Position numbers and translations under genes: made by a program | DNA from: a virus | Length of the DNA stretch: 29,711 nt | IMG/VR virus record: IMGVR_UViG_3300045988_119598 | Coordinates: 1-29,711 of that record | Reading direction: 5' to 3' (one strand) | The notes under the pieces: generated by a model | Told to the model about the DNA's origin: nothing | Databases searched by the model: none | Seen by the model: only the letters and a program-made list of their open reading frames with translations | Shown here: piece by piece, positions 1-29,711 of the stretch | Numbering within the stretch: position 1 is the stretch's first letter | How the letters are laid out: each line of letters starts with the position of its first letter

Positions 1-73
1 ATTTCTTCATCTCCCGCATTGAAGAGATTAGGGTAGCTACTGTTAAGCTCTCTAATAATTTGCAAAAAAAAAC
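1..73. repeat. 73-bp terminal direct repeat, identical to 29639..29711 (circular-contig overlap; unit genome 29,638 bp)
   Basis: Bases 1-73 (atttcttcat...tgcaaaaaaaaac) recur exactly at 29639-29711. A minus-strand ORF reads in frame across the join. Confidence 0.95.
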
Positions 74-2568: not shown

Positions 2569-2898
2569 TTAATTAATAAGTTTGTATATAACATCTATCA
2601 ACTTAGTAGATGCGTCTTTTAATAATATCATAATATCTTTAATAATTGGAGTCATAAATGCTAATAATGCAATATATCCAACCATTAAAATTGAAAATTG
2701 ACTTGTAATAAGAATATATAGTAATCCAATTCACCAAGTCATACACAAACTGCAATCTAAAGGTTTGAGTCTTCAATCTTCTTTATATGGTATACCTTTA
2801 AATAGCATTTTTCAAATACTATGTTTAAAACTATCTAAAGCTCCAGATAAATCAATTATAAAAACTATTATTGCAGTTATTATAAATAATTCTAACAT
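2569..2898 (-). CDS. Small integral membrane protein (109 aa; three in-frame TGA)
   Basis: ATG 2898..2896 overlaps the preceding TAG; TAA at 2569-2571. TGAs are at 2812-2814, 2773-2775 and 2731-2733, the last directly after TGG (CSLCMTW-W-IGLLY). It has hydrophobic TM-like stretches and is invisible in the standard-code track. Confidence 0.65.
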
Positions 2899-3137
2899 AA
2901 TCTCTCTCTTATTTGTTTAATAAATCTTTGAATTGTAGTATGACTAATTCCTAATATTCTTCCAACTTCTCTATAACTGTGATATTCAGCATATAATATG
3001 ATTACTGTCTTATCTGCCTTATTAAGCTCAAGCCATTTTGGATATATACTTAATAATCTATCATCCATATTTGTAAACATACTATAGTCTATTTCATACT
3101 CATTAAGTAAATCATCAATATTAATCTTCCTTTTCAT
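2892..3137 (-). CDS. Sigma-70 region-4-like / HTH transcription regulator (81 aa)
   Basis: LNKADKTVIILYAEYHSYREVGRILGISHTTIQRFIKQIRERL follows the region 4.2 / LuxR-type HTH pattern, by eye. TAG stop. Confidence 0.55.
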   Translation of the reverse strand: MKRKINIDDLLNEYEIDYSMFTNMDDRLLSIYPKWLELNKADKTVIILYAEYHSYREVGRILGISHTTIQRFIKQIRERLC

Positions 3138-3429
3138 TTAATCAATCCTCCAATTCATCATTTTGTTGTTCAAGTGGCTCTTTAACAATCTCATAATATT
3201 TCTTATAAGTATAGTAATATCTACTTGTTTTACTAAACCAATAATTCTTAAATAATCTTGTAATCCAAAATTTCAATTCATTTTTACTATCAAGCTGATT
3301 TAATTTTGGATTTGATGTTTCCAGAAGGTCTAGTATACACATCTGGAAACAATCATCATCCATTCCAAATTTAAGTTTTAACTCTTGGCAGAAGTCATAA
3401 TATTTGGTAATAATCTCATTATTCGTCAT
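3121..3429 (-). CDS. Sigma-70 region-2-like protein (95 aa to the TGA at 3142-3144; 102 aa if TGA is read through to TAA 3121-3123)
   Basis: DDDCFQMCILDLLE ... ELKFWITRLFKNYWFSKTSRYY resembles sigma region 2.1-2.4 / ECF sigma, by eye. This is the only gene whose track stop is a TGA that does not rejoin another fragment. Confidence 0.45.
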
Positions 3430-4092: not shown

Positions 4093-4136
4093 AATTTTAT
4101 TATTTAAATGTTAATACTTGTTTTATTATTGTAATA

Positions 4137-4168
4137 CAAAGATAATACATTTTTATTCAATTTCCAAA
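4137..4168 (-). promoter_or_regulatory. Bacteroidota-type promoter (TTTG-N20-TATCTTTG) facing the minus-strand operon
   Basis: On the minus strand, TTTG lies at 4168..4165, a 20-nt spacer follows, and TATCTTTG lies at 4144..4137. This matches the published -33 TTTG / -7 TAnnTTTG consensus. Gene start is at 4092. Confidence 0.6.
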
Positions 4169-4211
4169 TTTTTAGACAACTTTTTTTCATATTTTTTTTT
4201 CTTAAAAATTA

Positions 4212-4243
4212 TTTGGAAATCTAAAAATAATGTTGTATATTTG
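4212..4243 (+). promoter_or_regulatory. Bacteroidota-type promoter (TTTG-N20-TATATTTG), plus strand
   Basis: TTTG 4212-4215, 20-nt spacer, TATATTTG 4236-4243. It belongs to the same ~44-bp repeat unit as the other two promoters. Confidence 0.55.
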
Positions 4244-4301
4244 TACTATCAAAATAAGAAATAATAAAAATGAAAATTTATTAAAAATAATTGCTAAATT
4301 A

Positions 4302-4333
4302 TTTGGAAATTTAATTTTTATGTATTATCTTTG
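4302..4333 (+). promoter_or_regulatory. Bacteroidota-type promoter (TTTG-N20-TATCTTTG), plus strand
   Basis: TTTG 4302-4305, 20-nt spacer, TATCTTTG 4326-4333. The segment atgtattatctttgtatta is the exact inverted copy of 4132-4150. Confidence 0.6.
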
Positions 4334-4370
4334 TATTATGAAATTAAAACTAATAATTCTACTACTTCTA

Positions 4371-4397
4371 GGCAGGTGAAAGTCCTGCCACTTTTTG
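4371..4397 (+). terminator. Hairpin plus T-run in the leader of the plus-strand module (attenuator or end of a short RNA)
   Basis: GGCAGG-tgaaagt-CCTGCC (4371-4389) followed by ACTTTTTG. It lies about 35 nt downstream of the predicted start of the promoter at 4302-4333 and 90 nt upstream of the ATG at 4488. Confidence 0.45.
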
Positions 4398-4405
4398 AAT
4401 CTTAC

Positions 4406-4455
4406 TGTCAAGTTTTTTACTCAAATTTAGTAGTAAGAAAATAAAAATATTGACA
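4406..4455 (+). repeat. Dispersed 50-bp intergenic element, copy 1
   Basis: Invariant 18-mer TGTCAAGTTTTTTACTCA (4406-4423), then TAGTA, then AAATAAAAA, then TTGACA (4450-4455). Orientation is given as written; the functional strand is unknown. Confidence 0.9.
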
Positions 4456-4487: not shown

Positions 4488-6209
4488 ATGAAAACGTATT
4501 TAAACAATCTAATTAATGAGTTACCAACTAACTGCTTATTTGATAAAGGAAAAGTTGGATGTGGAGGAACTTCAATGGCAATTGAATGTGATAAGCCTTA
4601 TGTTATTTGTGTTCCATTTACAAGCTTAGTTGAAAATAAAATTCAACAATATCCAAATGAAAGACGTAAAGAGAAGATATTTGGAGTTTATGCGGGAGTT
4701 ACTATTAAAGAGATTAAAGATTATGTAGATAGTGTTAAATGTCCTAAAATTATTGTTACATATAATTCACTACCAAAAGTTATTTCTGCTGTTAATACTA
4801 AAGAATATAGTTTATTAGTAGATGAATATCATATACTATTTAATCAGTATAGCTTTAGAAAGGATGCTATTAAACCTGTTTTAGAGAATTATACATTATT
4901 TAAGGATTTTACATTTATGACTGCTACACCTCTTGAAGAAGAATTTGTATTAGATGAATTAAAAGATTTAGAATTAGTAAAACAAGAATGGGATGATGTA
5001 ATTGAAACTAAAGTACAAGCTGTTAAATGTAAGAATGTTGAAGCTTCAACTATTAAATTAATTAATGCTGTTCTTAATAATCAGGTTGAAGGTAATGTTT
5101 ATATATTTGTAAATTCTGTAGACTTTATAAAGAATCTTATTCAGAAAGCTAAACTTACAGAAGATAATACAAGAGTTATATATTCTAAAAACAATAAAAC
5201 TAAATTATCAATTCATAATTCTACAGTATTAGATGAACCTAAGAAAATAAATTTATTAACTTCAACAGTATTTGAAGGTTCTGATATTTATGATGAAAAT
5301 GGAAGAATTGTAGTAGTAAGTGATGCTCAAAAAGCTCAAACTCTTCTTGATATCTCTACTTCTATTCAGCAGATTGCAGGAAGAATTAGAAATAGTAAAT
5401 ATTTAAACTGGATAACACATCTTTACTCAACAACAAGATATGCAGATATTAGTTATGAAGACTTTAAAAAGAAGAATATTCAGAATATTGAAGAAACTAA
5501 GATTGCTGTAGATGCTTATAACTCAATGCCTGAAGTTGCAAGAAAGAAGCTTAAGGAATTTACATCTGATGCTTATATTCAAGTAAATGATAACTTTACT
5601 TTTACTTTTGATCCTAATATGGCCAAAGTGGACATATTTAACTTTAAAGTGACAAGAGGCTTATATTCTATTAGAACTAATCTTAATAAGGAATATATAA
5701 AGAATGGGTTTAAAAAAGTAGTAGAATGTGAAGATAATTCTATTAAGATTGATTTTGAATCTGATAATAAACCATTTAAAGATTTAATTAAAGAAGTAAG
5801 AGCTGAGTGGGAAAATAAGTTTAAATTAAACACTCCTATATTAAATGATGCTATTATTAAATATCCTTGGTTACCTGAAGCTATTAGTAAATTAGGATTT
5901 GAAAAGATGGCAAGTTTAAAATATTGTATTTCAGATATTAAAGATGCCTTATTAAAAAAATCTAATAAAAGTGCAGATAACAAAGCTGCTAAGAAGTTGA
6001 ATCAATCAGTTACTCTTGGAATGTGGTATTCTAATTCTGATATTAAAAAGTTTATTAAAGAAGCCTATGAAATTAGTGATATTACTATTACCCCAAAAGC
6101 AACAGAAATTGATAAATATTATGAAGTTAAAAAATGCCAGAAAAGAATAAATGGTAAACAAACTGAAGGTTATATACTTATTAGTAAAAAATTTGTATTT
6201 AATAAATAA
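4488..6209 (+). CDS. SF2 (DExH) helicase-like protein, 573 aa
   Basis: P-loop-like GKVGCGGTS, motif II LLVDEYH, motif III MTATP and motif VI QQIAGRIRN, by eye. No in-frame TGA (5 Trp, all TGG). TAA stop. Confidence 0.6.
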   Translation: MKTYLNNLINELPTNCLFDKGKVGCGGTSMAIECDKPYVICVPFTSLVENKIQQYPNERRKEKIFGVYAGVTIKEIKDYVDSVKCPKIIVTYNSLPKVISAVNTKEYSLLVDEYHILFNQYSFRKDAIKPVLENYTLFKDFTFMTATPLEEEFVLDELKDLELVKQEWDDVIETKVQAVKCKNVEASTIKLINAVLNNQVEGNVYIFVNSVDFIKNLIQKAKLTEDNTRVIYSKNNKTKLSIHNSTVLDEPKKINLLTSTVFEGSDIYDENGRIVVVSDAQKAQTLLDISTSIQQIAGRIRNSKYLNWITHLYSTTRYADISYEDFKKKNIQNIEETKIAVDAYNSMPEVARKKLKEFTSDAYIQVNDNFTFTFDPNMAKVDIFNFKVTRGLYSIRTNLNKEYIKNGFKKVVECEDNSIKIDFESDNKPFKDLIKEVRAEWENKFKLNTPILNDAIIKYPWLPEAISKLGFEKMASLKYCISDIKDALLKKSNKSADNKAAKKLNQSVTLGMWYSNSDIKKFIKEAYEISDITITPKATEIDKYYEVKKCQKRINGKQTEGYILISKKFVFNK

Positions 6210-6677: not shown

Positions 6678-6681
6678 ATGA

Positions 6682-6709
6682 AAATAGGAGGGTATATGCC
6701 CTCCTATTT
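6682..6709. terminator. Bidirectional hairpin terminator between the convergent plus and minus modules
   Basis: 11-bp perfect stem AAATAGGAGGG / CCCTCCTATTT with loop tatatg. The stop of the minus-strand HNH gene (6704-6706) lies inside it. Confidence 0.7.
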
Positions 6710-7027
6710 CTGTTTAAATCTTTGATAGTTACTAACCGATGAATGAATAGCTTTATGACAAACTGAACATAATGTTATTAAATCCTCCAAATGTTCTTGC
6801 TCATTATATAGATTCTCATACGTCTTATGATGTACCGATAAAGACCTATTTCCGCCTTCCTGAACGCATCAGTTACAAGTTTGGCAGTGATAGTTATCTC
6901 GCAATAATATTTGCTCTCTAATAGCCTTAAAATCCTTTGATCTTATATATCTTTGGTACTTTAAATATTCTTCACTTCTTACTTTCTTTTTCGTCTTATG
7001 AAGCAGTTTACTTGATTTGGAGTCCAT
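6704..7027 (-). CDS. HNH endonuclease (107 aa; in-frame TGA at 6869-6871)
   Basis: RDNYHCQTCN-W-C ... SVHHKTY ... DLITLCSVCHKAIH is a classical HNH / zinc-hook pattern. ATG 7027..7025, TAG 6704-6706. Not in the track. Confidence 0.8.
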
Positions 7028-10492: not shown

Positions 10493-10871
10493 AACTTACG
10501 TATGTATTAGATTTATCATATTGATATTTATTATTCTCATAATCTCCAATTCTTATTAATCCTGTTCCCAATATAGGTATTGGTTTACCAGCTACTAATA
10601 TCTGAGTGCCATTAGTAAGAGTATTATTATATGTAACCAAGATAACTGGATTTCCATATAACTCTGATCTAAATGGATTGTTTACATCAACTATAACTTG
10701 AAATTTATTTGGATTAGTAAATAAAATATATTGATATTCACCGTCTCTCATTCCTTCTTGAAGTGTAATATCAAACTTATAGTAGATATTCTCAGAATAA
10801 TTCTGATTTTCAAGATCAAATAAATAAACTTCTTTAGTAGTTGTATGCTGTAAAATAAGGCTATAATTCAT
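10479..10871 (-). CDS. Hypothetical protein (130 aa)
   Basis: Intact ORF with a TAA stop. It overlaps the portal start by 14 nt. Confidence 0.55.
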   Translation of the reverse strand: MNYSLILQHTTTKEVYLFDLENQNYSENIYYKFDITLQEGMRDGEYQYILFTNPNKFQVIVDVNNPFRSELYGNPVILVTYNNTLTNGTQILVAGKPIPILGTGLIRIGDYENNKYQYDKSNTYVSYERK

Positions 10872-11526
10872 ATTTTCAAATATATTTTTTATATGTTGAA
10901 GTTATTCCTCGCAGAGCATTATACACTCCACTTCTAATAAATTCATCTTCTATGTCTTTTGCCCTATTATATCGCTTAATAAGAACTCCATCTAAAGAAT
11001 ATCTTAATATAGATTTATATTTTGTATTAGTTCTAGTTTCTCAAGATTTCTTAATTGATTCTTTAGTCTCTTTGCTTCTCTTTCTACCATATAAAGGGCA
11101 AAGCTCTCCAATTTTGCCATACATACTTGAATGCTTACCATACATTGGATTTTTAGAACCTTTTTTGGATTTTGATATTTTTGCTTTTGTAATTGCATTT
11201 ACAATGTGGCCAGATGTTCCATCTCCTCCATCAGTCATATTATATCCTCTATCCTTAGTACTAAACAATTCAATATAATGCTTTTCTGCTTCATCTAGCT
11301 TTTTATTTAACAAACTTGATGTAGAGCAACAAAATACCTGTATAACTTCAATAATAAAATTCTCTTCACCATACTTTCTCATTGCTCGGCTTAAATGATA
11401 ATTTAGACCATTTCTCGCCTTTAACTTGTGTTCAGTAAATCTTTGATTTACATCTCGTACAGTCTTACCAATATAAATTTTATTATTTACCAAATTGGTA
11501 ATTTTATATATTACACCGCTTTTCAT
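10861..11526 (-). CDS. GIY-YIG homing endonuclease (221 aa; in-frame TGA at 11041-11043 and 10876-10878)
   Basis: GVIYKITNLVNNKIYIGKT ... RFTEHK ... GYNMTDGG. Read-through adds a NUMOD/IENR-like DNA-binding tail (ILRYSLDGVLIKRYNRAKDIE...TYKKYI-W-KYEL). TAG 10861-10863. Confidence 0.85.
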
Positions 11527-11594
11527 AATTTTTACATTAGTTTTACATATCTTTTTCTTAAAATATAAACTAATTTACTAATGTATTAAAATAA

Positions 11595-11620
11595 TTAAAG
11601 GAGACCTAAGCCTCCTTTAA
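11595..11620 (-). terminator. Hairpin abutting dispersed-element copy 2
   Basis: 9-bp stem TTAAAGGAG / CTCCTTTAA with an 8-nt loop. On the minus strand it is followed by AATTATTTTAAT. Confidence 0.5.
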
Positions 11621-11670
11621 TGTCAAGTTTTTTACTCACTCAAAGTACTAAGAAAAAATAAAAACTGACA
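11621..11670 (+). repeat. Dispersed 50-bp intergenic element, copy 2
   Basis: TGTCAAGTTTTTTACTCA 11621-11638 ... CTGACA 11665-11670. It starts 1 nt from the stop of the minus-strand fibre gene (11672-11674). Confidence 0.9.
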
Positions 11671-11671
11671 A

Positions 11672-12661
11672 TTAGTTAAAACTTGCTAAAGTTCAGTTTT
11701 TAGATGCAGCTAATGATTTCTGTTCCTCAGTAAGTGCATTATAAACGTTAGTATAAAAAGCTAAAGTTTTAGTATCTTTTCCAGATAAATCACTAACATT
11801 TGTAATAATATCAGTTACCGATTGACTATTTAGTGCTCTAAAATTTGCTAAATTCATACTTTTATCGGCTCCTTCAACACCCCCAAAATAAGTTACAACA
11901 GTACTAGCCATACCACAAAGTGCTGTTTTATTAAGATCTTGGTATAAAGAACAATTTGTTAATTTTATTTTACCTACAGATGTGATACTAGATGAATATG
12001 AGCTAAAATACTGAGTAAAAGTTACTTGCCCATTTATAACTTCAATTTCAGGGACACTAATAGGAACAGCAGAATCAGTAGTTACTAGATTAAAAAAATA
12101 TTCTAATGCACATACACTAGTTTCATACTTATTTGTTATTGTTATATTTTTTGGAAAAGATGTGGATAAATAAAATGTGCGCGTACAATATCCTCAACTA
12201 GTGGAATAAGGATTAATAAATTCTAGAGTATCAATACTGCCTTCAAAACCAGAAAATGTAAATGAACGTTCGGCCATCAGTTTTATCTCATTAATATGTA
12301 TATTGCTAGCATATTGAAATGTTCTTTCCGCAGCATATAATGTATCTGGATTAATATGATCAGATATATCAATAGGATCTTGAAATGAAGCCATATGAAA
12401 TCAATAACTACAATCTTGTGGAATTTTATATTCAACGTTATCATAATGATCTTTATCCATTTTAGAATTTGAAAATGTTAATCCATAATCATTTAAATTA
12501 ATCTTTCCTCCACCACCTCCAGAAATCTGTCCTATCTTATCTGCATAGCTTCTAAAGGTATCTGAATCCGATACAGCAACACCTTTAGCTACAATAGCAT
12601 CTTTAATGGCACTCTTAGTACCTTCAAGATACGTTAATTTATCAGAAATTGTATTTGCCAT
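11672..12661 (-). CDS. Tail fibre / receptor-binding-like protein (329 aa; three in-frame TGA)
   Basis: Track ORFs 12401..12661, 12194..12394 and 11693..11911 are one frame joined by TGAs at 12401-12403, 12194-12196 and 11693-11695, with open sequence between them. It has the N-terminal fibre motif KLTYLEGTKSAIKDAIVAKGVAVSDSDTFRSYADKIGQI and a Gly5 hinge. It ends ...ASKN-W-TLASFN, TAA. Confidence 0.6.
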
Positions 12662-12662
12662 A

Positions 12663-13184
12663 TTAGATATATTTAAATTTTACCCCTTTATAAGTGTCTG
12701 TTCTTCCTTTAAGACAATCTATAACTCTACTATGAGTATACCCATCTATTGATGTTTCAATTGCATTTTTATATGTTTTAACTAGTAAATCATTAATAAA
12801 TAGCCCTACAGGTTTACTAATTTTATCAATACATCTATTTATTCTAGTTCCATATGTATTATTATACTTTGCATCACATCATTCTAAATTTTCTACCCTA
12901 TTATCTGTCTTATTTTCATTTATATGGTTAACATATGGTAGATTGTCAGGATTTGGAATAAATGCTTCTGCTACTAGTCTGTGAACTTTAATAGCTTTAG
13001 GTTTATCTAAGCCAGATACTAGAATTACATAATTATAGCCATATTTATCTATATGCTGTTTTAGCTTTTTATGTATTTGTTTTCTGGTTCTTCCAATAGA
13101 ATCTTTAAAAGTCAATGGGTTACTATATACATCTCCTGTAGAAGATACACTATAGTTAGGATAATTTGTTAATACTCTATTCAT
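12663..13184 (-). CDS. HNH homing endonuclease, NUMOD4/HNH_3-like (173 aa; in-frame TGA at 12879-12881)
   Basis: [11 protein letters not shown] ... [42 protein letters not shown]. Read-through adds a DNA-binding tail ([21 protein letters not shown]...YKGVKFKYI). TAA 12663-12665. The start is taken at MNRVL (13184). Confidence 0.85.
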
Positions 13185-13851
13185 TTGGAATTTCACCATT
13201 AATTGTATCAAGAGTAGTTGAGATAGTTCCGATTTGTGCCTGTAAAGCTTGAATAGCAGCTTCTAATTCTGAAACCTTAGCATTATATACTTCTAATGTT
13301 ACATAATTAGATAGTTCCGATTTGTCTGCTTTATTTGCATCTAATGTCCCAACTTCCTTATCTAATGCATCAATCTTTAGTCCATCCTCTTCTTGCTTAC
13401 TTTCAATAGCTTTAATCTTAGAAGAATTGTTTCCAACTTCACTTTCAACAGATGCAAGCTCTTCTTTAGTAGCAAAATCCTCAGTACTTGGAATATCTGA
13501 CTTGAGAGCATAGTTAGAAAGATCAATAGATAGATGTAAATCTTCACCCTCTCTATTAAATGACATAGGAGAGTTTACTTGAAATACTTCCATCTTAGAT
13601 GTTTCTAATTCAGTAATATCATTCTTAATTGGCTCTAACTTAGGTTCAAGTATGACATCCAACTGAGAATTAATTTGCTCATCAATTATTTCAACAGCCT
13701 TATCTTCAGAAATGTAATTACCTTTAGGTTGAAATCTTTCATCTGATTCAATCTTAGTATAAGAACCAACAGGAAGTTGTCCAGATTCAATTCCACATTT
13801 CTTACTTACATAGAAAGTTTGTGTGTTTTTAGTATTTTTAAGTATAATCAT
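13177..13851 (-). CDS. Fibre-associated coiled-coil protein (224 aa)
   Basis: The C-terminal heptad-like region shares the block [14 protein letters not shown] with the 771-aa fibre. TAG stop. Confidence 0.55.
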
Positions 13852-17324: not shown

Positions 17325-17370
17325 ATTATTTTCTATAAAATATAAATTATTAATTATGTGGTATATAAAC

Positions 17371-17405
17371 AAAAAACAAGGGGCAAGTAAATTAATACTC
17401 GCCCC
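17371..17405 (-). terminator. Rho-independent terminator after the capsid/abundant-protein genes
   Basis: On the minus strand: GGGGCGAGTA-ttaatt-TACTTGCCCC, then TTGTTTTTTG. Confidence 0.75.
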
Positions 17406-17416
17406 TCTTTCTGTTA

Positions 17417-18907: not shown

Positions 18908-19522
18908 TTAACCAATAAAGTTTTTAAGCTTTCTATCTATCTCTGCTATTCCACTTATGGAAGCAGTTGTCTTATTTTCAAGTGTTTCTTCTGCTGAAAA
19001 AGCAGCACTCATCTTACTCATTTTTTCTACAGTTTTTTCAGTAGCTTCTGACTTTCCTTCAAGTTCAGCTACCTTCTTAACAAGCTTATCTACAATATCA
19101 TAAAGCTCATTAATTTCGCGATGAATAGCGTCGATTGCATCAGTCTCAGTTTCTTTAACACCATCTGTTTCAACAGCAGGATCAGCAACTTCCTCAGCCT
19201 TTACTCTCTTAGTTCCACAAGCAGCATCAACCTCAACAGTTTTCATACCTTCATCTGGATCAACTTCAGCTTTTGGATCAGTAATGGACTCTACTTTACC
19301 GTCTTTAACAACAATAGTTTTGCCATCTTCGGTAACATACTCACCATCAGCAGCAGGTGCATATTCGCCAGTATCAGTATCCATTGTATATACACTCATA
19401 CCTGCCCTTAGATCCTCATCCTCACTACCATCGTAAGTTAGAACTCCAGCACTAGTCTTAACATCGTTAAATTTTGCTAAGAGTTTACTAAGTTCGATTC
19501 TCAGTTTAGTTAATTTGTTCAT
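18908..19522 (-). CDS. Scaffolding-like protein (204 aa)
   Basis: Acidic, coiled-coil-rich and Trp-free, immediately upstream of the capsid gene. Confidence 0.5.
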   Translation of the reverse strand: MNKLTKLRIELSKLLAKFNDVKTSAGVLTYDGSEDEDLRAGMSVYTMDTDTGEYAPAADGEYVTEDGKTIVVKDGKVESITDPKAEVDPDEGMKTVEVDAACGTKRVKAEEVADPAVETDGVKETETDAIDAIHREINELYDIVDKLVKKVAELEGKSEATEKTVEKMSKMSAAFSAEETLENKTTASISGIAEIDRKLKNFIG

Positions 19523-20117
19523 ACTTAAATTTAAAATTTTTATGATAGTTTTGTTTATTTTTGCAACATTTTATAATAGCACTATGATCAAAATTTCCGT
19601 TTCTTTCAGCGTCCATAGCAGATTTCCAAGTGCATATATAAGTATCATTAATATCTGTCATAATTATACGTTTACTTACTTTTTCTTTCTGCTGTTCAGT
19701 TTGTTTAGTTCCTAATCTACATTCTCTTAACTTTAATTTTGTTTCATCCTTTAATACTCTTCCAGACTGTTTTAAAGACATTTTGTGTTTAGATTCTTCA
19801 CTGTGTTTAAATCCAGTATTAGAACCTCCACCTTCATTTAAATTATAACCATTATTTAATGTATCAAATAACTGAATATATTTAATTTCTGCATTATTTA
19901 GTTGTCTTTTCAATAATTCTGTAGAAGAACAACAAAAGATTTGAAGAATTTCCCATTTAAAGTTATTGAATTCATATTTCCTAATCGCTCTATGAAAATA
20001 TGTAAGATTAGAACTGTATTTATGTTCATTCTTTCTTCTCAAGAAATTATTTGTTTGTCCTACATATTTATTGCCATTTATAAGATTTGTTGCTAGATAT
20101 ATAACTCCACTATACAT
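19506..20117 (-). CDS. GIY-YIG homing endonuclease (203 aa; no TGA)
   Basis: GVIYLATNLINGNKYVGQT ... RKNEHKY ... GYNLNEGG. Clear paralogue of 10861..11526 (shared FCCS(S/T)..LL...L..AE..YI.LF). Inserted between the protease and scaffold genes. Confidence 0.85.
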   Translation of the reverse strand: MYSGVIYLATNLINGNKYVGQTNNFLRRKNEHKYSSNLTYFHRAIRKYEFNNFKWEILQIFCCSSTELLKRQLNNAEIKYIQLFDTLNNGYNLNEGGGSNTGFKHSEESKHKMSLKQSGRVLKDETKLKLRECRLGTKQTEQQKEKVSKRIIMTDINDTYICTWKSAMDAERNGNFDHSAIIKCCKNKQNYHKNFKFKYEQIN

Positions 20118-20787: not shown

Positions 20788-20836
20788 TGTCAAGTTTTTT
20801 ACTCAAATTTGTATCTAAGATAAATAAATTTTGACA
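20788..20836 (+). repeat. Dispersed intergenic element, copy 3 (49 bp)
   Basis: TGTCAAGTTTTTTACTCA 20788-20805 ... TTGACA 20831-20836. It lies upstream (minus sense) of the head-morphogenesis genes. Confidence 0.9.
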
Positions 20837-20888
20837 TAGCACTACTATATAAGCACTGATAATCAGCAACTTACATAGTAGTGTGTCA
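20832..20888 (-). terminator. Long imperfect hairpin after the tape-measure-like gene
   Basis: TGACA-tag-CACTACTAT ... ATAGTAGTG-TGTCA: a 9-bp plus 5-bp stem with a 26-nt loop that contains its own CTGA/TCAG mini-stem. It overlaps the right arm of element copy 3. Confidence 0.4.
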
Positions 20889-20901
20889 GAAATTTTACTC
20901 A
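20884..20901 (+). repeat. Degenerate extra copy of the 18-mer (14/18)
   Basis: TGTCAGAAATTTTACTCA versus TGTCAAGTTTTTTACTCA. It starts 2 nt from the stop at 20904-20906. Confidence 0.6.
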
Positions 20902-20903
20902 CT

Positions 20904-23237
20904 TTAGAAACTTGCATTTGATTCTGTAACTGCAACTTTAGTTTGAACACTGGTAATATCACTCTCAACTACATAACATTTAACAGGTTGATTCAATTCA
21001 TCAGTCTCTTTATTGCCAAGTAAGTTTCGAGTATATTCTACAGGAGCAGTATTTAAAGCAGCAGGAGCAGTAGTTCCTGCATCACTTCCAGAACCTCCAG
21101 ATGAAGGAAGCTGCTCATTCTGGATAGCCTTAACATTAGCAAGACCTGCAATAACTGCTGTAGCTGCTGCAATAGGTGCCAGAATAGGACCTACAAAAGG
21201 TATACCTACCATAGCTTTATATGCACCTTGGGCAGAACTGATAGTATCAATAATAGCTTGAGTAGTAGCTAATGCTTTATACACTTTAAATGATTTCTCC
21301 CTCTGTTTCTCAGATTTTTTATCATCACTAGCTTCTTGTTTAAATACATTAGCTAAAGCTCCACTTAAAGAAGAAGCTACATTCATAGTAGCTTGAATAG
21401 CTTGCTGCTTTTTAGCTTGTCTATCTTTAAATGCTTGCAGATCTGCTTCTCCTCTTGCATTAGCTGCTTCTGATAAAGCTATATCATTAGCATCCTGTTG
21501 CAATTTAATAGCTTGAGATTGATTAGCATATTCTTGTTCTGTTATTAACTTATTGTTATATTGCTCATCTAAGATAGCTTGCTGTTGAGACATCAATTCA
21601 TTTTCTCTTGTAATCCTATCTTTAGTAAGATTATATAACTCTTTATTATAATCTACTGTAGCTTGATATTGCTTTTGAACATCTTTTCCAGATTGATAGA
21701 AATCCGTTGAACCAAATTGTTGAACTCTAGTTTCATAACTTCCAGATTTACCTGCAGATAATGCAGCCTCTTTATTTGCAAATAATTGAGATTCCCTATC
21801 TTGCATTTCTTGTAATGCAGATAATCTGTTTTCTAAGTCTTCCCTATAACTTTCATTATTATTATCTAACCACTCTTTATTATATGCATCATTTATTTGC
21901 TTTAATCTCTTTCTATATTCCTCAACTGTTATAAGCTCTTTATCTTTAGCTGTTTTAAGAGCATCTAATTGATTTTGATATTTGGTATTTAATTCATCTA
22001 ACTCTCTAGCTTCATCATCTAATAGCAGTTTTCTATTCTCTTCATAGAAATCATTGATAACCTTCAGTAAATCAGCGTTACGTTTCTTTGCATCTTCAAT
22101 ATTCTTTAGATAGTTAGCCTTAGCCTCTTCTCTGGCTTTACGCTCTGCAGAGATTTCCATCAGTTTAGTCTTTTCATAAGCTTCAGCAGATTTTTGCATC
22201 AAATCATTTCGCTTCTCAAGATAAGTGTTATAAATACCAGAAGCTTTATCATAAGCTGCTTTTTGATCATCATTTAACTTACTTAAAAAGAAATCAACTT
22301 CATTTGAGCTAGTCTTTAATCTTCATTGTATAGCTTGTGAATACTCCTCCCAAGTGTCATATCCAGATTTCTTAAACTCTTTTCTGAAGTATTTATTACT
22401 CTTAAGTATATCTGTAAATGAATCATTATATGCTTTAGTTACACTTCCAAATTGCTGGAATAATTTAGCATCTAATTCACCTAATGCTTGAGCATAATCC
22501 TTTCAGATTTGTATTTCATTCTTTTTACCTTCAGCTAAATCTCTTTCTCTCTGTCTTTCTAATTCTGCAATTTCTGTATTAGCTTGTGCATAGTTAGTTC
22601 CTCATTGGTCTGTTATATCTTTTAAACCAGAAATACTAATTTCTAAATCATCAATTCCTGATGCTGCTTTAATTGCAAAATCTATTAACATACCAAGAGC
22701 TACAACTAAAGCTCCAATTCCTGTAGATATAATTGCAGACCGTAGCACACCCATTGCTACAGATAATCCTCCAGTTGCAGCCGTAGCACCACCCATTGCT
22801 ACAGATAAGGCTTTAAATGATTTTACTCCATTAAGAATACCTTCACCTAAACCTTTTAATCCTCCAATTCCTTGAACTATAGCAATTGCTGCTTGCAATT
22901 TAACCATAGTTTTTTGAAGATTCTCTGTATCTTTTCCAAATAAAGTGAATGCTGCACTAACAGCTGAAACTCCTCCAGCTAAACCTCCTGCTACTTGATT
23001 GATACTGTCAAACGCCTTAACTGCATTTACAGTTTTACCTTGCATAGATTCTGTAGCAACACCTAACTTATTTTGAACATTAACAAGTTCTTCAAGTTTT
23101 TTAGTATAGTCAGTACTACCAATCTCAAGATCTTCCAGTTCAGCCGTCAAGCCAGCTACTTCTTCTCGTAGCTGCTTGATCGACTTTGAACTAGTTTTAG
23201 TATCTATACTAATTACTTTTTTAATTTCTTCAGCCAT
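20904..23237 (-). CDS. Tape-measure-like / internal virion protein (777 aa; three in-frame TGA)
   Basis: Track ORFs 22602..23237 and 20904..22202 share a frame. The gap is open except for TGAs at 22602-22604, 22503-22505 and 22323-22325. It has Gly/Ala-rich hydrophobic segments plus long coiled coils. TAA stop. Confidence 0.65.
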
Positions 23238-23238
23238 A

Positions 23239-26200
23239 TTAGTTTATAGTTACATTTTTAACAGTATCTTCTGTTAGTGTTAAATTCTCTGTATATTTAA
23301 CTGTTCCTGTAGGTCCATCAGTCACTTCGAATTTAAACTGAACACCTTTTTGAGCATATATTCTATAATTTCCATTATCCCGCATATAAGCCACATTCAA
23401 GAAGTTATCGTTTTCTGTAAGTATCTGATTTACCCCAGTTGGTATAGTGCCACTTGGAGTTTCTAATTTGCCTGTAATAAGAACAGCTTTATTTGGATCT
23501 GGAGTTTGAGTAAACATACATTTAGGACCATCTATGCCTCCTTGTTTATAAAGACTAAAGTAGAAACTTCTTTGGTCATATTTAGTATTCTCATTATAAG
23601 TAACTGTTAATTCTGTTTCTCCAGGTTGCCCAGATTCAGGTGTAATGCTTACAATTTCATTTGGACTATATCATCCTAATTCCCAAGGAATATTAGAAGT
23701 AACTGTAATCTTTTTAGTTCCAGCTTTATAATCTACAACTGGATCTGAATCGTCAAATGATATATACTCACCTAAATTTTGAATTCCAGCTAAATAACTA
23801 TTAATATCTTGAACTTTAATAAATTCACATCTAACAGTAGAATCTGAATTAATATCATAAGCATCTATCTTATTAAGTACCCAGTATGAATCTTCAAAAT
23901 AATAGAATTGTCTAAGTAAATCATATTTAACATCTAAATCATCTAATCTTACAAAGCAGGTGACTTTTTTAGTATTTACATCAAATTGATCATTATAAAA
24001 TTTACTCCAGAATTGGTGATATAAAGTAGATGTCTCAGTATATGTTATATCATCAATATATATCTCTTTAGGTAATCCAAAATCTCAAGAAGATATAACA
24101 TTATAGTCTGATAACATATATCTGGTAAACTGAGGTAATGAAGTCTTCTTTATTGCAATCTTCTTACCAGCTATGTCCCTCTCACTATTAGTATATAAAT
24201 AGCACATCTTCTGATCATTTAATACATTCATTTCTAGAAGATCATCTGTAATCCAGTAGTTTATAGGGTTTCCATCAACATCATTTAATGAAATATTACC
24301 ATTATAAAATACTAAGGATGATGTAATATCCTCTAATGTTTCCTCGTCTCCATCTACAGAAAAGAACATATTTTTAGCAAATATATCATTGCCAGGAATC
24401 TTATATCATTCTGTAGTCTTACTTGGATCTATAAAGTTAACTCCATATAAATCCTGACTTCCAGATTTGATATCAGATGCTAAACCACTAAATAGATTAT
24501 ATGTGATATTATCATTCATAAATGCAGGAACATAAGAACCAGTTGAATTATAGAAATTCCTGTAATACTTACTTCTCCATCTAGCTGAGATGATGTTATC
24601 ATAGATATTATCACTATATAAATCAGTAGTTTCTGAATTAAAGTTATAACCAGTATTTAATCTTTGCTGTCCATATAATTGACTATAATCTTTATTGTAT
24701 TTCTTATAATAATAAGTCTCTGGACCTTCAGAACTCATCTTATAGAATTTCTTATCAAATAATATTGGATTTACATTGAAATCTTTAGAATAGTCTATTC
24801 TCTTACTCCAATCTGAAATTATATTCTTAAAAAAGTTATTTCTAGTATATATTCTAATTGTTTTACTGTCAATATCTTTTGTAAAATACAATCCAAATAG
24901 TTTTGCATAGCTTAGAAGATAATCAGCAGGAGATTGTTCTGTCTTTAATAATAAACTCTTAGTTAATAGAGCATTACTCTGTAATGTGTCTGTAGATATT
25001 ATAAACTCAATAGGAGATGTAAAACTAACTGATATGTTTCCTTTTGGAATAGTTGAAAAGTCTTCACCTCTCTCGTATGTTTCACTTAATAATCCAGTAG
25101 GAGATACTGTATTACCTGTATCCCATATAACATTCAGTTTAATCTTTATATAATCAATCGGAATCTTGAAATCATCAATATTAATATGAAAGAGATTAGT
25201 CTTGGAATTTACATCATAAAATTGTCCGTTCTCAAAATATCCAAAGTGATTCACTCCATCACTTATAGGATTAGAATAATTTCCACTATTAGTAAATCTA
25301 TGAATCTCTGAAGTATATATAACTTGATCATATGTATTAGTTATAGATAACCATACATTAGCATATCCTTTATATGCTGAATAAAAAGGAGGTACTGATG
25401 AACTAAAATACCTTCTAAATCCGAAGTAATATCTATTAGCTATATTTCCAGCTGTCCTACTAAAATTCAAATTAAAGGAGAATGTTGTAGAGAGGCTCCT
25501 TCTAAATCCAGCTTCAGTCAAATCAATAACTCCAGATGAATATTTAATAGTAGAAGATGTTATATCCAACTGTAAAGGACTTAAAACAAACCCTTGATAA
25601 TTAATACCAACATCATAGTTATATGTTCCATCTTTAACTAGAATTCCAGATTCCGCAGTAGATTCAGCATCTCCAACTAAATTAGACAATAGAGGAAGAG
25701 CTATGAATGACTTACTCCAATAAGGATTAGAATTATTAAAGAAACTATCATCAAATATCACATCATATCCAGAATTCTCCTTTCTACAGATCGTTTCTAT
25801 TAACTTACTTAATTTTAAAGCTGGCCTTTGCATATAACTTCTAAGATCTCTTATCTCCCATTCTGTATATGCTCTATTTAAATTAGCTAATCCGTATCCA
25901 TTATATGGAGTATACGTAGTCCCTGATTCAGTTATAGATTTTGGAAATAAACTATCTCCATTAGTATTTATTAGACAAGTCTCATTATCAAAATCTTCAG
26001 GTAATCCATTATATGAAGGTATAAATGTTATATAGTCATATATCTGACTTCCATCTATAGACTTATTTCAATCAAAACAAGTATTTACAAAGTCCTTATT
26101 AATAGAGAAATTCATCTCCTTCTCAGAAGGTAATACATTCCCATCTTCATCTGTTATGAAGTACTGCAATTCCGATAATGTTCTAATAGTGCCATCTTCT

Positions 26201-26598
26201 TTATATTTAAGTCCATAGAAGAAATCTCCTAATCCTCCATATAAAGTAATATTATAAGTAATGACAGCTTGTTTTATAGATATGCTATTTAATTGCATAT
26301 ATCCAGATTCAACTAAATAGCCATTATTATAAATTCCAAAATCAACTCGTTTTGAAGGATCAAAATATACTCCAGAGAAATTACCTTCTTTTATATGGAG
26401 AAATCTATCTAATTTATAAATCTCTCCAAAAATCTTATTATTGTTTTTGTCTCCTGGAATGCTTATAGTCTTACTGAATGAATTTTTTACTATTGTTGGA
26501 TTCTGAAAATCTTCTACAGTATAAGTCATTGGTAACGATATGCCTTCAGAACAATGTACTTCTTTTCCTGCAATAAATAATTTAATATTCTTTCTCAT
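23239..26598 (-). CDS. Large tail/baseplate structural protein (1119 aa; four in-frame TGA)
   Basis: Track ORFs 26068..26598, 24406..25833, 24085..24369 and 23239..23517 are all in one frame. They are joined by TGAs at 26068-26070, 24406-24408, 24085-24087 and 23671-23673, with open codons between. TAA 23239-23241. Confidence 0.7.
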
Positions 26599-29263: not shown

Positions 29264-29305
29264 TTTTACTAAAATATATCATTCTCATATTGAGTATCTA
29301 AACAC

Positions 29306-29330
29306 AAATAGGGAGATTTACTCCCTATTT
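29306..29330 (-). terminator. Hairpin next to dispersed-element copy 4
   Basis: 10-bp perfect stem AAATAGGGAG / CTCCCTATTT with loop attta, 3 nt from the element. Confidence 0.5.
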
Positions 29331-29333
29331 AAG

Positions 29334-29383
29334 TGTCAAGTTTTTTACTCACTTTTAGTAGTTAAAATAAATAAATCTTGACA
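29334..29383 (+). repeat. Dispersed 50-bp intergenic element, copy 4
   Basis: TGTCAAGTTTTTTACTCA 29334-29351 ... CTTGACA 29377-29383 (perfect 7-bp inverted arms). It starts 2 nt from the TAA at 29386-29388. Confidence 0.9.
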
Positions 29384-29628: not shown

Positions 29629-29711
29629 TTTTTCATCAATTTCTTCATCTCCCGCATTGAAGAGATTAGGGTAGCTACTGTTAAGCTCTCTAATAATTTG
29701 CAAAAAAAAAC
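29529..29711 (-). CDS. Chaperone-like protein, 3' part of the frame-0 ORF begun at 550 (29639..29711 duplicates 1..73)
   Basis: It continues ...SMREMKKLMKKEKDPVKKYQLRKRIVQARQTLNLVKNGTGFVE to TAG 29529-29531. Confidence 0.55.
   Translation of the reverse strand, partial: VFFCKLLESLTVATLISSMREMKKLMKKEKDPVKKYQLRKRIVQARQTLNLVKNGTGFVE
29628..29634 (-). other. Candidate -1 ribosomal slippery site G_AAA_AAG
   Basis: Minus-strand ATG AAA AAG GAG. A shift back by one nt at AAA-AAG enters the open -1 frame (GGA GAA AGA ...). Confidence 0.4.
29639..29711. repeat. Second copy of the 73-bp terminal direct repeat
   Basis: Exact match to 1-73. The repeat ends in an A9 homopolymer. Confidence 0.95.

What the first reader, a model, noticed from the sequence alone, without database searches (positions are those of the whole stretch)
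4406..4455. A 50-bp element with an invariant 18-mer occurs four times, always intergenic, same orientation, at module boundaries
Copies lie at 4406-4455, 11621-11670, 20788-20836 and 29334-29383. Each has TGTCAAGTTTTTTACTCA (identical in all four), about 26 nt with conserved TA(G/C)TA and AAATAAA blocks, then (T/C)TGACA. That last block is the inverted complement of the left-end TGTCAA, so the arms are about 38 nt apart.

On the coding (minus) strand, copies 2 and 4 begin 1-2 nt after a stop codon and are followed within 3 nt by a 9-10 bp hairpin (11595-11620, 29306-29330). Together the copies precede the tail module, the head module, the portal-to-lysis module and, at copy 1, the regulator-to-terminase module (or the plus-strand helicase gene).

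Candidate roles are a phage-specific promoter for the sigma-like proteins, a 3'-UTR/terminator-linked RNA element or processing site, or a promoter-stem-loop cassette that mediates module exchange.
Basis: seen in the sequence. Interest (0 to 1): 0.7.

Follow-up and report, generated by a model that had tools for sequence, protein, structure and literature searches.

The report
Conserved hairpin repeat between phage gene modules

Summary
The 18-mer occurs exactly four times, on one strand, always intergenic, and a covariance model finds no further copy.

The window is a complete circular phage genome of about 29.6 kb that reads TGA as tryptophan.

The whole 50 nt forms an imperfect AU-rich hairpin. 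The arms make the outer stem. TTTTTATTT pairs with the invariant GAGTAAAAA, using two G·U pairs, to make the inner stem. The fold is more stable on the coding strand.

In about 45 related contigs I found 145 copies (34 variants). The core stays fixed while the arms change in a compensatory way: TGTCAA/TTGACA, TGTAAC/GTTACA and TGTCTA/TAGACA.

The element varies between genomes:
- It is absent at site 2 or site 1 in some genomes.
- It is flipped in place at site 4 in one lineage.
- It occupies a fifth site, 2 nt after the helicase stop codon on the other DNA strand, in others.

No −10-type box lies at a fixed distance from it. A separate TATATTTTA box sits next to each downstream start codon, including one intergenic region that has no element.

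Best reading (about 0.4): a transcribed REP/PeSL-like hairpin at the 3' ends of transcription units, involved in end formation, processing or insulation. It travels with terminator–promoter cassettes at mosaic junctions. A phage-specific promoter is not supported.

The parts
4406..4455 (-). Copy 1 of the hairpin element. It lies between the helicase start codon (4488, + strand) and the early control region. The core GAGTAAAAAAC reads on the minus strand.
   Evidence: Exact 18-mer; model R1 64.8 bits; RNA fold -9.9 kcal/mol, z -2.4. Its + strand TTGACA (4450-4455) with TAAATT 17 nt downstream is a candidate helicase promoter.
11621..11670 (-). Copy 2. It starts 1 nt after the stop codon of the 329-aa fibre-like gene (11672-12661).
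   Evidence: R1 68.5 bits. The sequence is identical in 32 of the 145 copies although the upstream protein is only 47-94% identical.
20788..20836 (-). Copy 3 (49 nt), between the tape-measure-like gene and the prohead protease gene.
   Evidence: R1 56.4 bits; fold z -2.8.
29334..29383 (-). Copy 4. It starts 2 nt after the stop codon of the 108-aa ORF that follows the terminase gene, and lies upstream of the tail module.
   Evidence: R1 66 bits; fold -15.1 kcal/mol, z -4.9.
11594..11621 (-). Intrinsic terminator hairpin abutting copy 2 (AUUAAAGGAGG...CCUUUAAU, then UAUUUUAAU).
   Evidence: Terminator scan; fold.
29306..29330 (-). GC-containing hairpin 3 nt after copy 4 (AAAUAGGGAG-UAAAU-CUCCCUAUUU, then GUGUUU).
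   Evidence: Fold. The same hairpin is kept in relatives whose element is flipped.
4371..4397 (+). Hairpin GGCAGG...CCUGCC next to copy 1. Its T-run is on the + strand, so it terminates the short rightward early transcript.
   Evidence: Terminator scan; sequence.
20840..20902 (-). Partial second core plus arm (GUGAGUAAAAUUUCUGACA, 20884-20902) directly after the tape-measure-like gene's stop codon, followed by a 20-bp hairpin (20840-20883). Together they look like a decayed element-plus-hairpin unit upstream of copy 3.
   Evidence: 4-mismatch matches in relatives; sequence; fold.
29270..29278 (-). TATATTTTA box 7 nt before the ATG at 29263; a candidate -10/-7 promoter element of the tail module, separate from the hairpin element.
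   Evidence: It is conserved in diverged relatives while the surrounding sequence varies.
11559..11567 (-). TATATTTTA box downstream of copy 2 and its terminator.
   Evidence: It is present in relatives that lack the element at this site.
17336..17344 (-). TATATTTTA box in the one long late intergenic region that has a terminator (17378-17407) but no element.
   Evidence: This shows that terminator-plus-box cassettes exist without the element.
4139..4331 (.). Three copies of an early promoter, TTTGGAAAT-N16-TAT(A/C)TTTG: 4139-4167 (-), 4213-4241 (+) and 4303-4331 (+). They are context, unrelated in sequence to the element.
   Evidence: Exact pattern matches; repeats D5, I1 and I2.

Best explanation
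The element is a transcribed, cis-acting hairpin placed at the 3' end of transcription units in a compact phage genome. It is the viral counterpart of bacterial REP-type intergenic palindromes and of the stem-loop part of T4-type PeSL cassettes.

On the coding-strand RNA the 50 nt fold into a 15-23-bp AU-rich imperfect helix. The outer stem is UGUNNN/NNNACA. The inner stem is UUUUUAUUU paired with GAGUAAAAA through two G·U pairs. The helix starts 1-4 nt after the upstream stop codon at sites 2, 4 and 5, and is usually followed at once by an intrinsic terminator and then by the next module's own TATATTTTA promoter box.

I infer that it shapes the 3' end of the upstream module's mRNA. It could do this as a second hairpin that blocks 3' exonucleases, or as a double-strand-specific (RNase III-type) processing site in read-through transcripts. 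Either way it would insulate neighbouring modules.

The invariance of one strand implies sequence-specific recognition by an unidentified factor.

Because the element-terminator-promoter cassette is nearly identical in genomes whose flanking genes have diverged, it also travels with, and may help, module exchange by homologous recombination.

Shown: the repeat, the fold, the compensatory arm changes, the positions, the presence/absence and orientation differences, and the mosaic flanks.

Inferred: that it acts as RNA, and what it does there.
For: - Four exact copies, against 0.24 expected. No further copy by covariance model.
- All 31 and 34 distinct variants fold as one hairpin. 92% of cells are paired, against 48-61% when the 3' partners are slid.
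- Three arm positions change on both sides: TGTCAA/TTGACA, TGTAAC/GTTACA, TGTCTA/TAGACA. Different arm types coexist in one genome, for example L087. That argues against a single protein reading both arms.
- G·U pairs (TGTCAG/TTGACA in 11 variants, plus two near-invariant U·G pairs in the inner stem) make the core strand the more stable one in all but two of the element variants, typically by 3-9 kcal/mol. Fold z-scores are -1.95 to -4.9 in the window and -8.75 for the 23-bp L079 variant.
- The element starts 1-4 nt after a stop codon at sites 2, 4 and 5. At site 3 of the L079 group it starts 10 nt after the stop.
- The fifth site, found in L025, L169, L196 and L206, lies on the opposite DNA strand. 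It is co-oriented with the rightward helicase operon, so orientation follows transcription rather than a fixed DNA strand.
- Terminator hairpins abut copies 2 and 4.
- Copy 2 is 100% identical in 32 of the 145 copies, while the upstream protein ranges from 47 to 94% identity. The flipped site-4 copy is identical across lineages with different flanks.
- All combinations of flank identity occur at sites 2 and 3, and whole cassettes are swapped, as in L083.
Against: - No transcript data exist, so RNA-level action is inferred.
- At site 4 one lineage (14 of the loci fetched around the protease gene) carries the element flipped in place. There the coding-strand RNA folds only weakly (z -1.3), yet the sequence is perfectly conserved.
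- Copy 1 has no upstream gene on its strand and no identified leftward promoter in front of it, so it may not be transcribed in the 'right' sense.
- A stabilising hairpin alone would not need an invariant GAGTAAAAA.
- The U·G pairs are never improved to C-G, which suggests a constraint other than stability.
- Four variants have mismatched arms (TGTCTA/TTGACA).
- Compensatory changes in a quasi-palindrome can also arise by template switching during replication, without selection on RNA.
Confidence: 0.4

Rival explanations
1. A DNA palindrome with no dedicated RNA function. In this view it is a selfish or neutral REP/MITE-like repeat, or a recombination 'linker', that persists and spreads among co-infecting phages by homologous recombination or by an endonuclease. 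Its arms would be kept complementary by template switching in the hairpin rather than by selection.
For: - Presence and absence both occur at sites 1, 2 and 5.
- An in-place flip occurs at site 4, exactly bounded by the arms.
- Chimeric arms such as TGTCTA/TTGACA look like recombinants.
- Where site 5 is filled, the helicase gene is bracketed by inverted copies.
- Flanks are mosaic and cassettes are swapped.
- The genomes are rich in GIY-YIG and HNH homing endonucleases, some inserted next to the elements.
Against: - Only five sites are used, all of them the few available intergenic gaps.
- There is no target-site duplication and no clean empty site; the neighbouring hairpin also differs.
- No transposase, RAYT or recombinase is detected.
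- There are no copies in host-type genomes.
- The strict strand asymmetry (two fixed G's opposite T's) and the bias towards the coding strand are unexplained.
- The breakpoints I could place lie beside the element, not in it.
Confidence: 0.25
2. A phage-specific promoter or activator-binding site. In this view the core, alone or with an arm, is bound on double-stranded DNA by the 81-aa sigma region-4-type HTH protein, perhaps with the 102-aa partner, to switch on the module downstream.
For: - A 10-12-nt motif is invariant across all variants.
- In this genome the element is co-oriented with the genes and lies upstream of every module.
- Copy 1 heads the leftward unit without any upstream gene.
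- The phage encodes an HTH that scores just above the Sigma70_r4_2 cut-off (26.6 against 25.7 bits).
- AAAAAACTTGACA resembles an UP element plus a -35 box, and in cellular genomes the same 18-mer often sits 17 nt before a -10 box.
Against: - No conserved -10/-7 box lies at any fixed distance downstream.
- A terminator follows within 3 nt in copies 2 and 4.
- Downstream genes keep their TATATTTTA box when the element is absent, and one late cassette never has the element.
- The element is flipped at site 4 in one lineage.
- At site 5 only 20 nt separate the arm from the ATG.
- Arm sequences differ within one genome, and their covariation is unexplained by a promoter.
- The 102-aa protein shows no sigma region-2 similarity.
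Confidence: 0.15
3. A nut/put-like antitermination signal. In this view the RNA hairpin, made just before each inter-module terminator, recruits a phage factor that lets RNA polymerase read on into the next module. This would give a temporal cascade from the early leftward promoter.
For: - The element sits between a gene end and a terminator at sites 2 and 4, as lambda nutR sits between cro and tR1 (my own knowledge).
- The conserved single strand within a hairpin suggests factor binding.
- Small basic and aromatic-rich early proteins are encoded upstream.
- Genomes lacking site 2 could rely on complexes loaded earlier.
Against: - The flip occurs at site 4, which would be the key early-to-late boundary.
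- Sites 3 and 5 have no terminator after the element.
- Copy 1 lies upstream of the early leftward promoter, not downstream of it.
- There is no overlap with the terminator stem that could give an alternative fold.
- Each module has its own promoter-like box.
Confidence: 0.07
4. A family of small RNA genes. In this view transcription starts inside the element, so the RNA begins with the invariant GAGUAAAAAACUUGACA as a seed and ends at the adjacent terminator hairpin.
For: The core followed by a hairpin and a U-run at sites 2 and 4 has the layout of a seed plus a terminator. In every variant a TAC lies 17-18 nt after the 5' arm.
Against: - The TAC-type box is a poor -10 element, and its spacing is forced by the stem.
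- No complementary target exists in the phage genome.
- Sites 1, 3, 5 and the flipped site 4 have no proper terminator.
- There is no Rfam match.
Confidence: 0.04

Closest known systems
PeSL cassettes (promoter-early stem-loops) of T4-type phages (Arbiol et al. 2010, PMC2839356; Comeau et al. 2014, PMC4122927)
   Same: Both are short conserved intergenic repeats that combine a stem-loop with transcription signals. Both sit between a stop codon and the next start, border variable genes, and are proposed crossover points for modular shuffling. G-T pairs in the stems are noted there too.
   Different: A PeSL is defined by a strong sigma-70-type promoter (AT-rich region, -35 and -10) with a usually GC-rich stem-loop that is itself the terminator. 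Here the repeat holds no recognisable promoter. Its stem is AU-rich and 15-23 bp long. The terminator and the promoter box are separate neighbours. There are 3-5 copies per genome rather than dozens.
REP / BIME intergenic palindromes of enterobacteria
   Same: Both are imperfect palindromes of tens of nucleotides with G·T pairs that give them polarity. Both are transcribed in 3' untranslated regions close to stop codons, occur in either orientation, and are present or absent between relatives. Known REP roles are mRNA 3' protection and effects on the upstream gene when the element lies within about 15 nt of the stop codon (my own knowledge).
   Different: This element is carried by a virus, not a chromosome. 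No RAYT-type transposase is present. No copies occur in any of 185,579 species genomes beyond chance. Only five sites are used. One strand is invariant.
RNase III processing hairpins of phage T7 early and late transcripts (R0.3 ... R18.5)
   Same: Both are families of about 50-60-nt imperfect hairpins with an internal loop. Both lie between cistrons of long polycistronic transcripts, are co-oriented with transcription and are similar in sequence to one another. In T7, cleavage leaves a protective 3' hairpin (my own knowledge).
   Different: Cleavage is untested here. The helices are shorter in most copies (15-20 bp). The element is usually followed by a terminator, which T7 sites are not. One lineage carries it inverted.
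Lambda nutR (boxA plus boxB) between cro and tR1
   Same: Both are a conserved RNA signal with a hairpin, placed just after a gene end and just before a terminator.
   Different: There is no boxA/boxB similarity. The hairpin is 50 nt instead of 15 nt. Several copies per genome lie far from any promoter. Orientation is not fixed in relatives.

Membership tests
Sigma-70-type or Bacteroidota-type promoter | Two boxes (-35 TTGACA or -33 TTTG, and -10 TATAAT or -7 TAnnTTTG) at 16-21-nt spacing, conserved among copies | tested here: not met
   Only copy 1 has a -10-like hexamer 17 nt from an arm, and that is on the + strand, serving the helicase gene. No position within 70 nt downstream of the element exceeds about 1 bit of information across 15 site classes. 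The phage's own early promoters share nothing with the element.
Sigma-70-type or Bacteroidota-type promoter | Fixed orientation towards the gene served, and present wherever that gene is present | tested here: not met
   Flipped at site 4 in 14 of the loci fetched around the protease gene. Absent at site 2 in L079, L081, L086 and L092, and at site 1 in L130 and L131, with the downstream genes intact.
Intrinsic (Rho-independent) terminator | GC-rich stem directly followed by a U-tract | tested here: not met
   The element's stem is AU-rich with 2-3 G-C pairs. The next 6 nt are UUAAAG, CUUAAA and GUAAGA at copies 2, 4 and 1, and the scan does not call it. The adjacent hairpins at 11594-11621 and 4371-4389 do qualify. 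At sites without a neighbouring hairpin the element is followed by UUUGGU (site 3) or UUUAUU (site 5), so a weak attenuator role there is not excluded.
PeSL cassette (T4-type phages) | Repeat contains a consensus early promoter | tested here: not met
   See the promoter rows. The likely promoter box TATATTTTA lies 54-66 nt further downstream and is not part of the repeat.
PeSL cassette (T4-type phages) | Stable stem-loop in an intergenic cassette at junctions of variable genes, with recombination between copies | tested here: inconclusive
   The stem-loop and the junction position are met. All combinations of flank identity occur at sites 2 and 3. However, the breakpoints I could place fall 50-150 nt upstream of the tape-measure-like gene's stop codon, or between the element and the promoter box. 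Chimeric arms hint at crossovers inside the element.
REP-type palindrome | Imperfect palindrome transcribed in 3' untranslated regions, in either orientation, variably present | tested here: met
REP-type palindrome | Cognate RAYT (Y1 transposase), and many copies in the host chromosome | tested here: not met
   No transposase-like protein was found among the gene products scanned. The 18-mer gives 25 single hits in unrelated taxa, close to my own chance estimate of about 17 for a collection of this size, and no contig has several copies.
RNase III substrate | About two turns of imperfect double-stranded RNA within a transcript | tested here: inconclusive
   15-20 paired positions in the window copies, and 23 in the L079 site-3 variant at -21 kcal/mol. 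Transcription through the sites is inferred from the gene layout only.
RNase III substrate | Cleavage by RNase III | not testable with these tools
   Needs an in vitro cleavage assay or mapping of RNA ends.
nut/put antitermination site | Lies downstream of the promoter it serves and upstream of terminators, in a fixed orientation | tested here: not met
   Copy 1 lies upstream of the leftward early promoter at 4139-4167. Site 4 is flipped in one lineage. Sites 3 and 5 have no terminator after them.
Any curated RNA family (Rfam 15) | Match to a covariance model | tested here: not met
   The only match in the window at E<=1 is a sub-threshold snoR43 hit elsewhere.
CRISPR-repeat mimic (solitary repeat unit) | The same sequence arrayed as CRISPR repeats in a host genome | tested here: not met
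   No genome contig holds more than one copy of the 18-mer. Only the exact 18-mer was tested.
tRNA / suppressor tRNA | Cloverleaf with an anticodon | tested here: not met
   ARAGORN finds none. The loops differ between copies and hold no common UCA anticodon.

The most novel reading that the evidence does not exclude
The element is a miniature palindromic element native to a virus: a REP/MITE-like hairpin whose invariant strand (GAGTAAAAA) is recognised by a phage-encoded nuclease or DNA/RNA-binding protein. That protein would copy, flip or exchange the element between the few intergenic sites of these genomes. Module boundaries and gene-module inversion, such as the helicase module bracketed by inverted copies, would then be actively organised by the element.
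Probability: 0.1. Interest if true: 0.7.

Novelty: new variant of a known kind. Interest (0 to 1): 0.45.

Why it matters
Conserved intergenic hairpins are among the few regulatory signals that can be read directly from uncultured phage genomes. This one defines a clade-wide motif with no Rfam family. It comes with clean comparative evidence: compensatory arm changes, filled and empty sites, and an in-place flip.

It occurs in a group of small phages that read TGA as tryptophan and whose biology is otherwise unknown.

If it is an RNA processing or 3'-end signal, it marks the transcription units of these phages and gives a handle on how their modules are expressed and insulated. If it is instead a recombination or mobility signal, it would be a compact example of how phage modules are reshuffled.

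It also shows that a repeat upstream of every module need not be the promoter.

Tried and rejected
- Promoter readings. I tested the 3' arm as a -35 box, the core as a -10 box, the 5' arm plus the loop TAC as -35/-10, and Bacteroidota-type TTTG/TAnnTTTG boxes. None is consistent across copies.
- Split ECF sigma. The 102-aa protein seemed by eye to carry a region-2-like motif. It has no Pfam or PHROG hit, no PDB sequence hit and no fold match despite a confident model (pLDDT 86). hhalign against E. coli RpoE gives probability 0.1%. Rejected as unsupported.
- Host REP element or CRISPR-repeat mimic. Only chance single hits occur in 185,579 species genomes.
- Known RNA family: none.
- Suppressor tRNA hidden in the element plus hairpin: no cloverleaf and no common anticodon.
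- Attenuator with alternative pairing between the element and the terminator: the strands are not complementary and overlap by only 1 nt.
- Invertible switch. No genome pair shows the same arm type in both orientations at one site, and no recombinase is encoded.
- Homing-endonuclease target. The endonuclease gene at site 2 is inserted downstream of the promoter box, not in the element.
- Cultured relatives. There are no megablast or capsid-protein matches in GenBank phages. The terminase is under 30% identical to any of them, and only marginal 33-nt DNA hits appear, so the host could not be named.
- A loose gapped pattern scan of viral contigs returned mostly chance hits. A look-alike hairpin in an unrelated 91-kb contig (L178) could not be told from chance.

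Full report
**1. The observation**

The 18-mer TGTCAAGTTTTTTACTCA occurs exactly at 4406, 11621, 20788 and 29334, all on the + strand. Allowing three mismatches adds nothing, and shuffles give 0.24 matches. The alignment and the repeat finder confirm a 49-50-nt unit that ends in (T/C)TGACA. A covariance model built later from 29 variants scores the four copies at 56-68 bits and finds no other copy in the window. The repeat is real and far beyond chance.

**2. Context**

The first 73 bases of the window equal the last 73, so this is a circular genome of about 29,638 bp with roughly 28% G+C.

Standard translation breaks the terminase, tape-measure-like and other large genes. Reading TGA as a sense codon fuses them: terminase 415 aa, tape-measure-like protein 777 aa, and proteins of 1,119 and 726 aa. 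TGA falls where tryptophan is expected, for example in the NLE-W motif of an HNH endonuclease. No tRNA gene is found.

With this code the minus-strand genes are packed with gaps of -41 to +3 nt. The only long gaps between the late genes are the three that hold copies 4, 3 and 2, plus 17325-17416. That last gap has a strong terminator but no element.

Gene content confirms the module picture:
- Copy 4 precedes the tail and tape-measure-like genes.
- Copy 3 precedes the protease, a GIY-YIG endonuclease, the scaffold and the capsid genes.
- Copy 2 precedes a GIY-YIG endonuclease, the portal, and the holin and endolysin genes.
- Copy 1 lies between the plus-strand helicase gene and a divergent control region.

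That control region holds three exact copies of TTTGGAAAT-N16-TAT(A/C)TTTG.

Next to the start codon of three module-leading genes lies TATATTTTA. Copy 3's downstream gene has TATATATTA instead. The same box occurs in the gap that has no element.

**3. Anatomy**

On the coding (minus) strand the element reads TGTCA(A/G)-N26-TGAGTAAAAAAC-TTGACA. It is a hairpin over its whole length:
- The arms form a 6-7-bp outer stem.
- UUUUUAUUU (or AUUUAUUUAUUUU) pairs with GAGUAAAAA, through two U·G pairs, to form an inner stem of 9-12 bp.
- The apical loop is 8-16 nt and varies in sequence.

Fold z-scores for the element alone are -1.95 to -4.9. The complementary strand folds less well because the wobble pairs become A·C mismatches.

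Copies 2 and 4 are followed within 0-3 nt by a GC-containing hairpin with a U-rich tail. Copy 1 adjoins a hairpin whose T-run is on the other strand. Copy 3 is preceded by a partial core plus arm and a 20-bp hairpin, which looks like a decayed unit.

**4. Relatives**

The exact 18-mer is found in 60 stretches of viral contigs. Nearly all come from genomes of about 30 kb in one metagenome, with 3-4 co-oriented copies each at the same four positions.

Fetching 20 kb around the protease gene and searching with the model gave 145 copies and 34 distinct sequences.

The core (G/T)AGTAAAAA never changes apart from one G-to-T variant. The arms change on both sides:

| Arm pair | Distinct variants | Pairing |
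|---|---|---|
| TGTCAA/TTGACA | 8 | perfect |
| TGTCAG/TTGACA | 11 | G·U on the core strand |
| TGTAAC/GTTACA | 6 | perfect; up to 9 bp as TAATGTAAC/GTTACATTA |
| TGTCTA/TAGACA | 2 | perfect |
| TGTCTA/TTGACA | 4 | one mismatch |
| TGCAAC/GTTACA | 1 | one mismatch |

Different arm types coexist in one genome.

On the model alignment 92% of cells pair, against 48-61% when the 3' partners are slid. That alignment captures only one of the three covarying positions, so I counted the arms directly.

**5. Three polymorphisms that constrain the function**

(a) Empty sites.
- L079, L081, L086 and L092 have stop codon, terminator and TATATTTTA box at site 2, but no element.
- Genomes with a different replication module (L130, L131) have no copy 1, although they keep the same leftward early genes.

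(b) An in-place flip. At site 4, one lineage (14 of the loci fetched around the protease gene) has the TGTAAC-type element reversed exactly between its arms, while the terminator hairpin keeps its place. The 50 nt are identical across sub-lineages whose flanks differ.

(c) A fifth site. In L025, L169, L196 and L206 an element starts 2 nt after the helicase stop codon, on the helicase strand. It is therefore on the opposite DNA strand to the other copies but co-oriented with local transcription. The helicase gene is then bracketed by inverted copies.

**6. Conservation against mosaic flanks**

Copy 2 is identical in 32 of the 145 copies, although the upstream fibre-like protein ranges from 47 to 94% identity and the downstream protein from 61 to 97%. 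All combinations of high and low flank identity occur, and the same is true at site 3.

Identity profiles at site 3 place breakpoints 50-150 nt upstream of the tape-measure-like gene's stop codon and between the element and the promoter box. In L083 the whole intergenic cassette has been swapped into a foreign background.

**7. What it is not**

- Not a conventional promoter. No box lies at a fixed distance. A terminator follows directly at sites 2 and 4. The element is dispensable and can be flipped. A separate promoter-like box serves each module.
- The 'sigma-like' pair does not hold up. The 81-aa protein has a sigma region-4-type HTH that barely passes the Pfam cut-off, alongside a stronger generic HTH hit. 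The 102-aa protein has no family, fold or profile similarity to sigma factors.
- Not a terminator by itself. The stem is AU-rich and there is no U-tract at sites 1, 2 and 4.
- Not a known Rfam family.
- Not a host repeat or a CRISPR-repeat mimic.
- Not a tRNA.

A more distant phage group (33% protease identity) has plain cassettes of a terminator plus an AACGTTATAT box and no AU hairpin. The element is therefore a clade-specific addition to an ordinary terminator-promoter layout.

**8. Most likely mechanism (confidence about 0.4)**

The element is transcribed as the last part of each upstream transcription unit and folds into a 15-23-bp hairpin right after the stop codon. Together with the neighbouring terminator it sets or protects the 3' end, or serves as a double-strand-specific processing site in read-through RNA. 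Either way it would insulate the modules.

The evidence for a single-stranded fold is the compensatory arm changes within single genomes, the wobble pairs that favour the coding strand, the stop-codon-proximal position at sites 2, 4 and 5, and orientation that follows transcription on both DNA strands.

The invariant strand implies a specific partner that I could not identify.

The steps from 'folds' to 'acts as RNA' to 'stabilises, processes or insulates' are inference.

Three observations fit poorly: the perfectly conserved flipped copy, copy 1 with no known upstream promoter, and the unimproved U·G pairs.

**9. Rivals**

- A selfish or neutral DNA palindrome and recombination linker (0.25) explains the flips, the empty sites and the chimeric arms best. 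It lacks a mobilising enzyme and does not explain the strand asymmetry.
- A promoter or regulator site on DNA (0.15).
- A nut-like antitermination signal (0.07).
- A seed-sharing small-RNA family (0.04).

The last three each conflict with several observations, as listed under the rival explanations.

**10. Comparison with known systems, and novelty**

It works most like REP-type palindromes and like the stem-loop half of T4-type PeSL cassettes (PMC2839356, PMC4122927). It also resembles T7 RNase III sites.

It is not a member of any of these. It has no promoter inside (PeSL), no RAYT transposase or chromosomal copies (REP), and cleavage is untested (RNase III).

I rate it a new variant of a known kind: a sequence-specific, clade-wide hairpin repeat of small TGA-recoded phages. 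It is of moderate interest (0.45) because its function is open and directly testable, while the general phenomenon is familiar.

Noticed in passing
window 1-29711 (e.g. 552-1799, 20904-23237, 23239-26598, 26601-28781): The genome reads TGA as a sense codon, most likely tryptophan (code 4). Standard translation splits the terminase, tape-measure-like and other large structural genes. No tRNA gene is detected. TGG is still the commoner tryptophan codon. The early helicase gene (4488-6209) has five TGG and no TGA.
   Followed up: partly
window 1-73 and 29639-29711: An identical 73-bp overlap at both ends shows that the window is a complete circular (or terminally redundant) genome of about 29,638 bp.
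   Followed up: partly
window 4115-4355: Divergent early control region with three exact copies of TTTGGAAAT-N16-TAT(A/C)TTTG: one leftward and two rightward. The motif fits both a sigma-70-type promoter and the Bacteroidota TTTG/TAnnTTTG consensus. Genes lack Shine-Dalgarno sequences, which hints at a Bacteroidota host, but I could not confirm the host.
   Followed up: partly
window 4338-4397 (+): The second rightward promoter is followed after about 60 nt by a terminator (GGCAGG...CCTGCC, then ACTTTTTG). This could be a short leader or small RNA, or an attenuator in front of the helicase gene.
   Followed up: no
window 10861-11526, 19506-20117, 12663-13199, 6704-7027 (all minus strand): Four homing-type endonuclease genes (two GIY-YIG, two HNH) sit in a 30-kb genome. 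The one right after copy 2 is absent from most relatives, and other relatives carry different endonuclease genes next to site 1 (L128) or after the HTH gene (L127).
   Followed up: partly
window 2892-3429 (-): Two overlapping early genes. The 102-aa product is confined to this phage clade; its model is confident and five-helical but matches nothing known. The 81-aa product has a sigma region-4-type HTH. The genes overlap by 17 nt in different frames, and I did not test for a frameshift fusion.
   Followed up: partly
window 6681-6710: A strong hairpin with an A-run on one side and a T-run on the other lies between the convergent helicase operon and the lysis module. It is a likely bidirectional terminator and has no element next to it.
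   Followed up: no
window 11559-11567, 17336-17344, 29270-29278, 2556-2564 (all minus strand): All five TATATTTTA occurrences are on the coding strand. Four of them lie in intergenic gaps a few to about 75 nt upstream of start codons, which makes this box the likely late or middle promoter element. The total count alone is not above chance (5 against 4.1).
   Followed up: partly
L100 2802, 9947, 11369, 13546; L096 several sites: A distant phage group (33% protease identity) repeats the box (T)AACGTTATAT 8-25 nt before start codons and after ordinary terminators. This looks like that group's own promoter motif.
   Followed up: partly
L130 1157-1494; L131 1-260: Some relatives replace the helicase module with a 248-aa protein gene. 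It is preceded by short direct repeats (gattcagtaccc twice, ataaaagtaatactata twice) that look like origin iterons.
   Followed up: no
L015, L017 (contig IMGVR_UViG_3300045988_175865, 148,631 bp): Genes and elements of this 30-kb phage type sit on a contig listed as 148 kb. It may be a concatemer, a mis-assembly or something larger.
   Followed up: no
A-run of the core, e.g. L062 9906, L071 9906, L064 2558: The A-run of the core is 5, 6 or 7 bases long in different contigs. This is either real length variation or homopolymer error in the assemblies.
   Followed up: no
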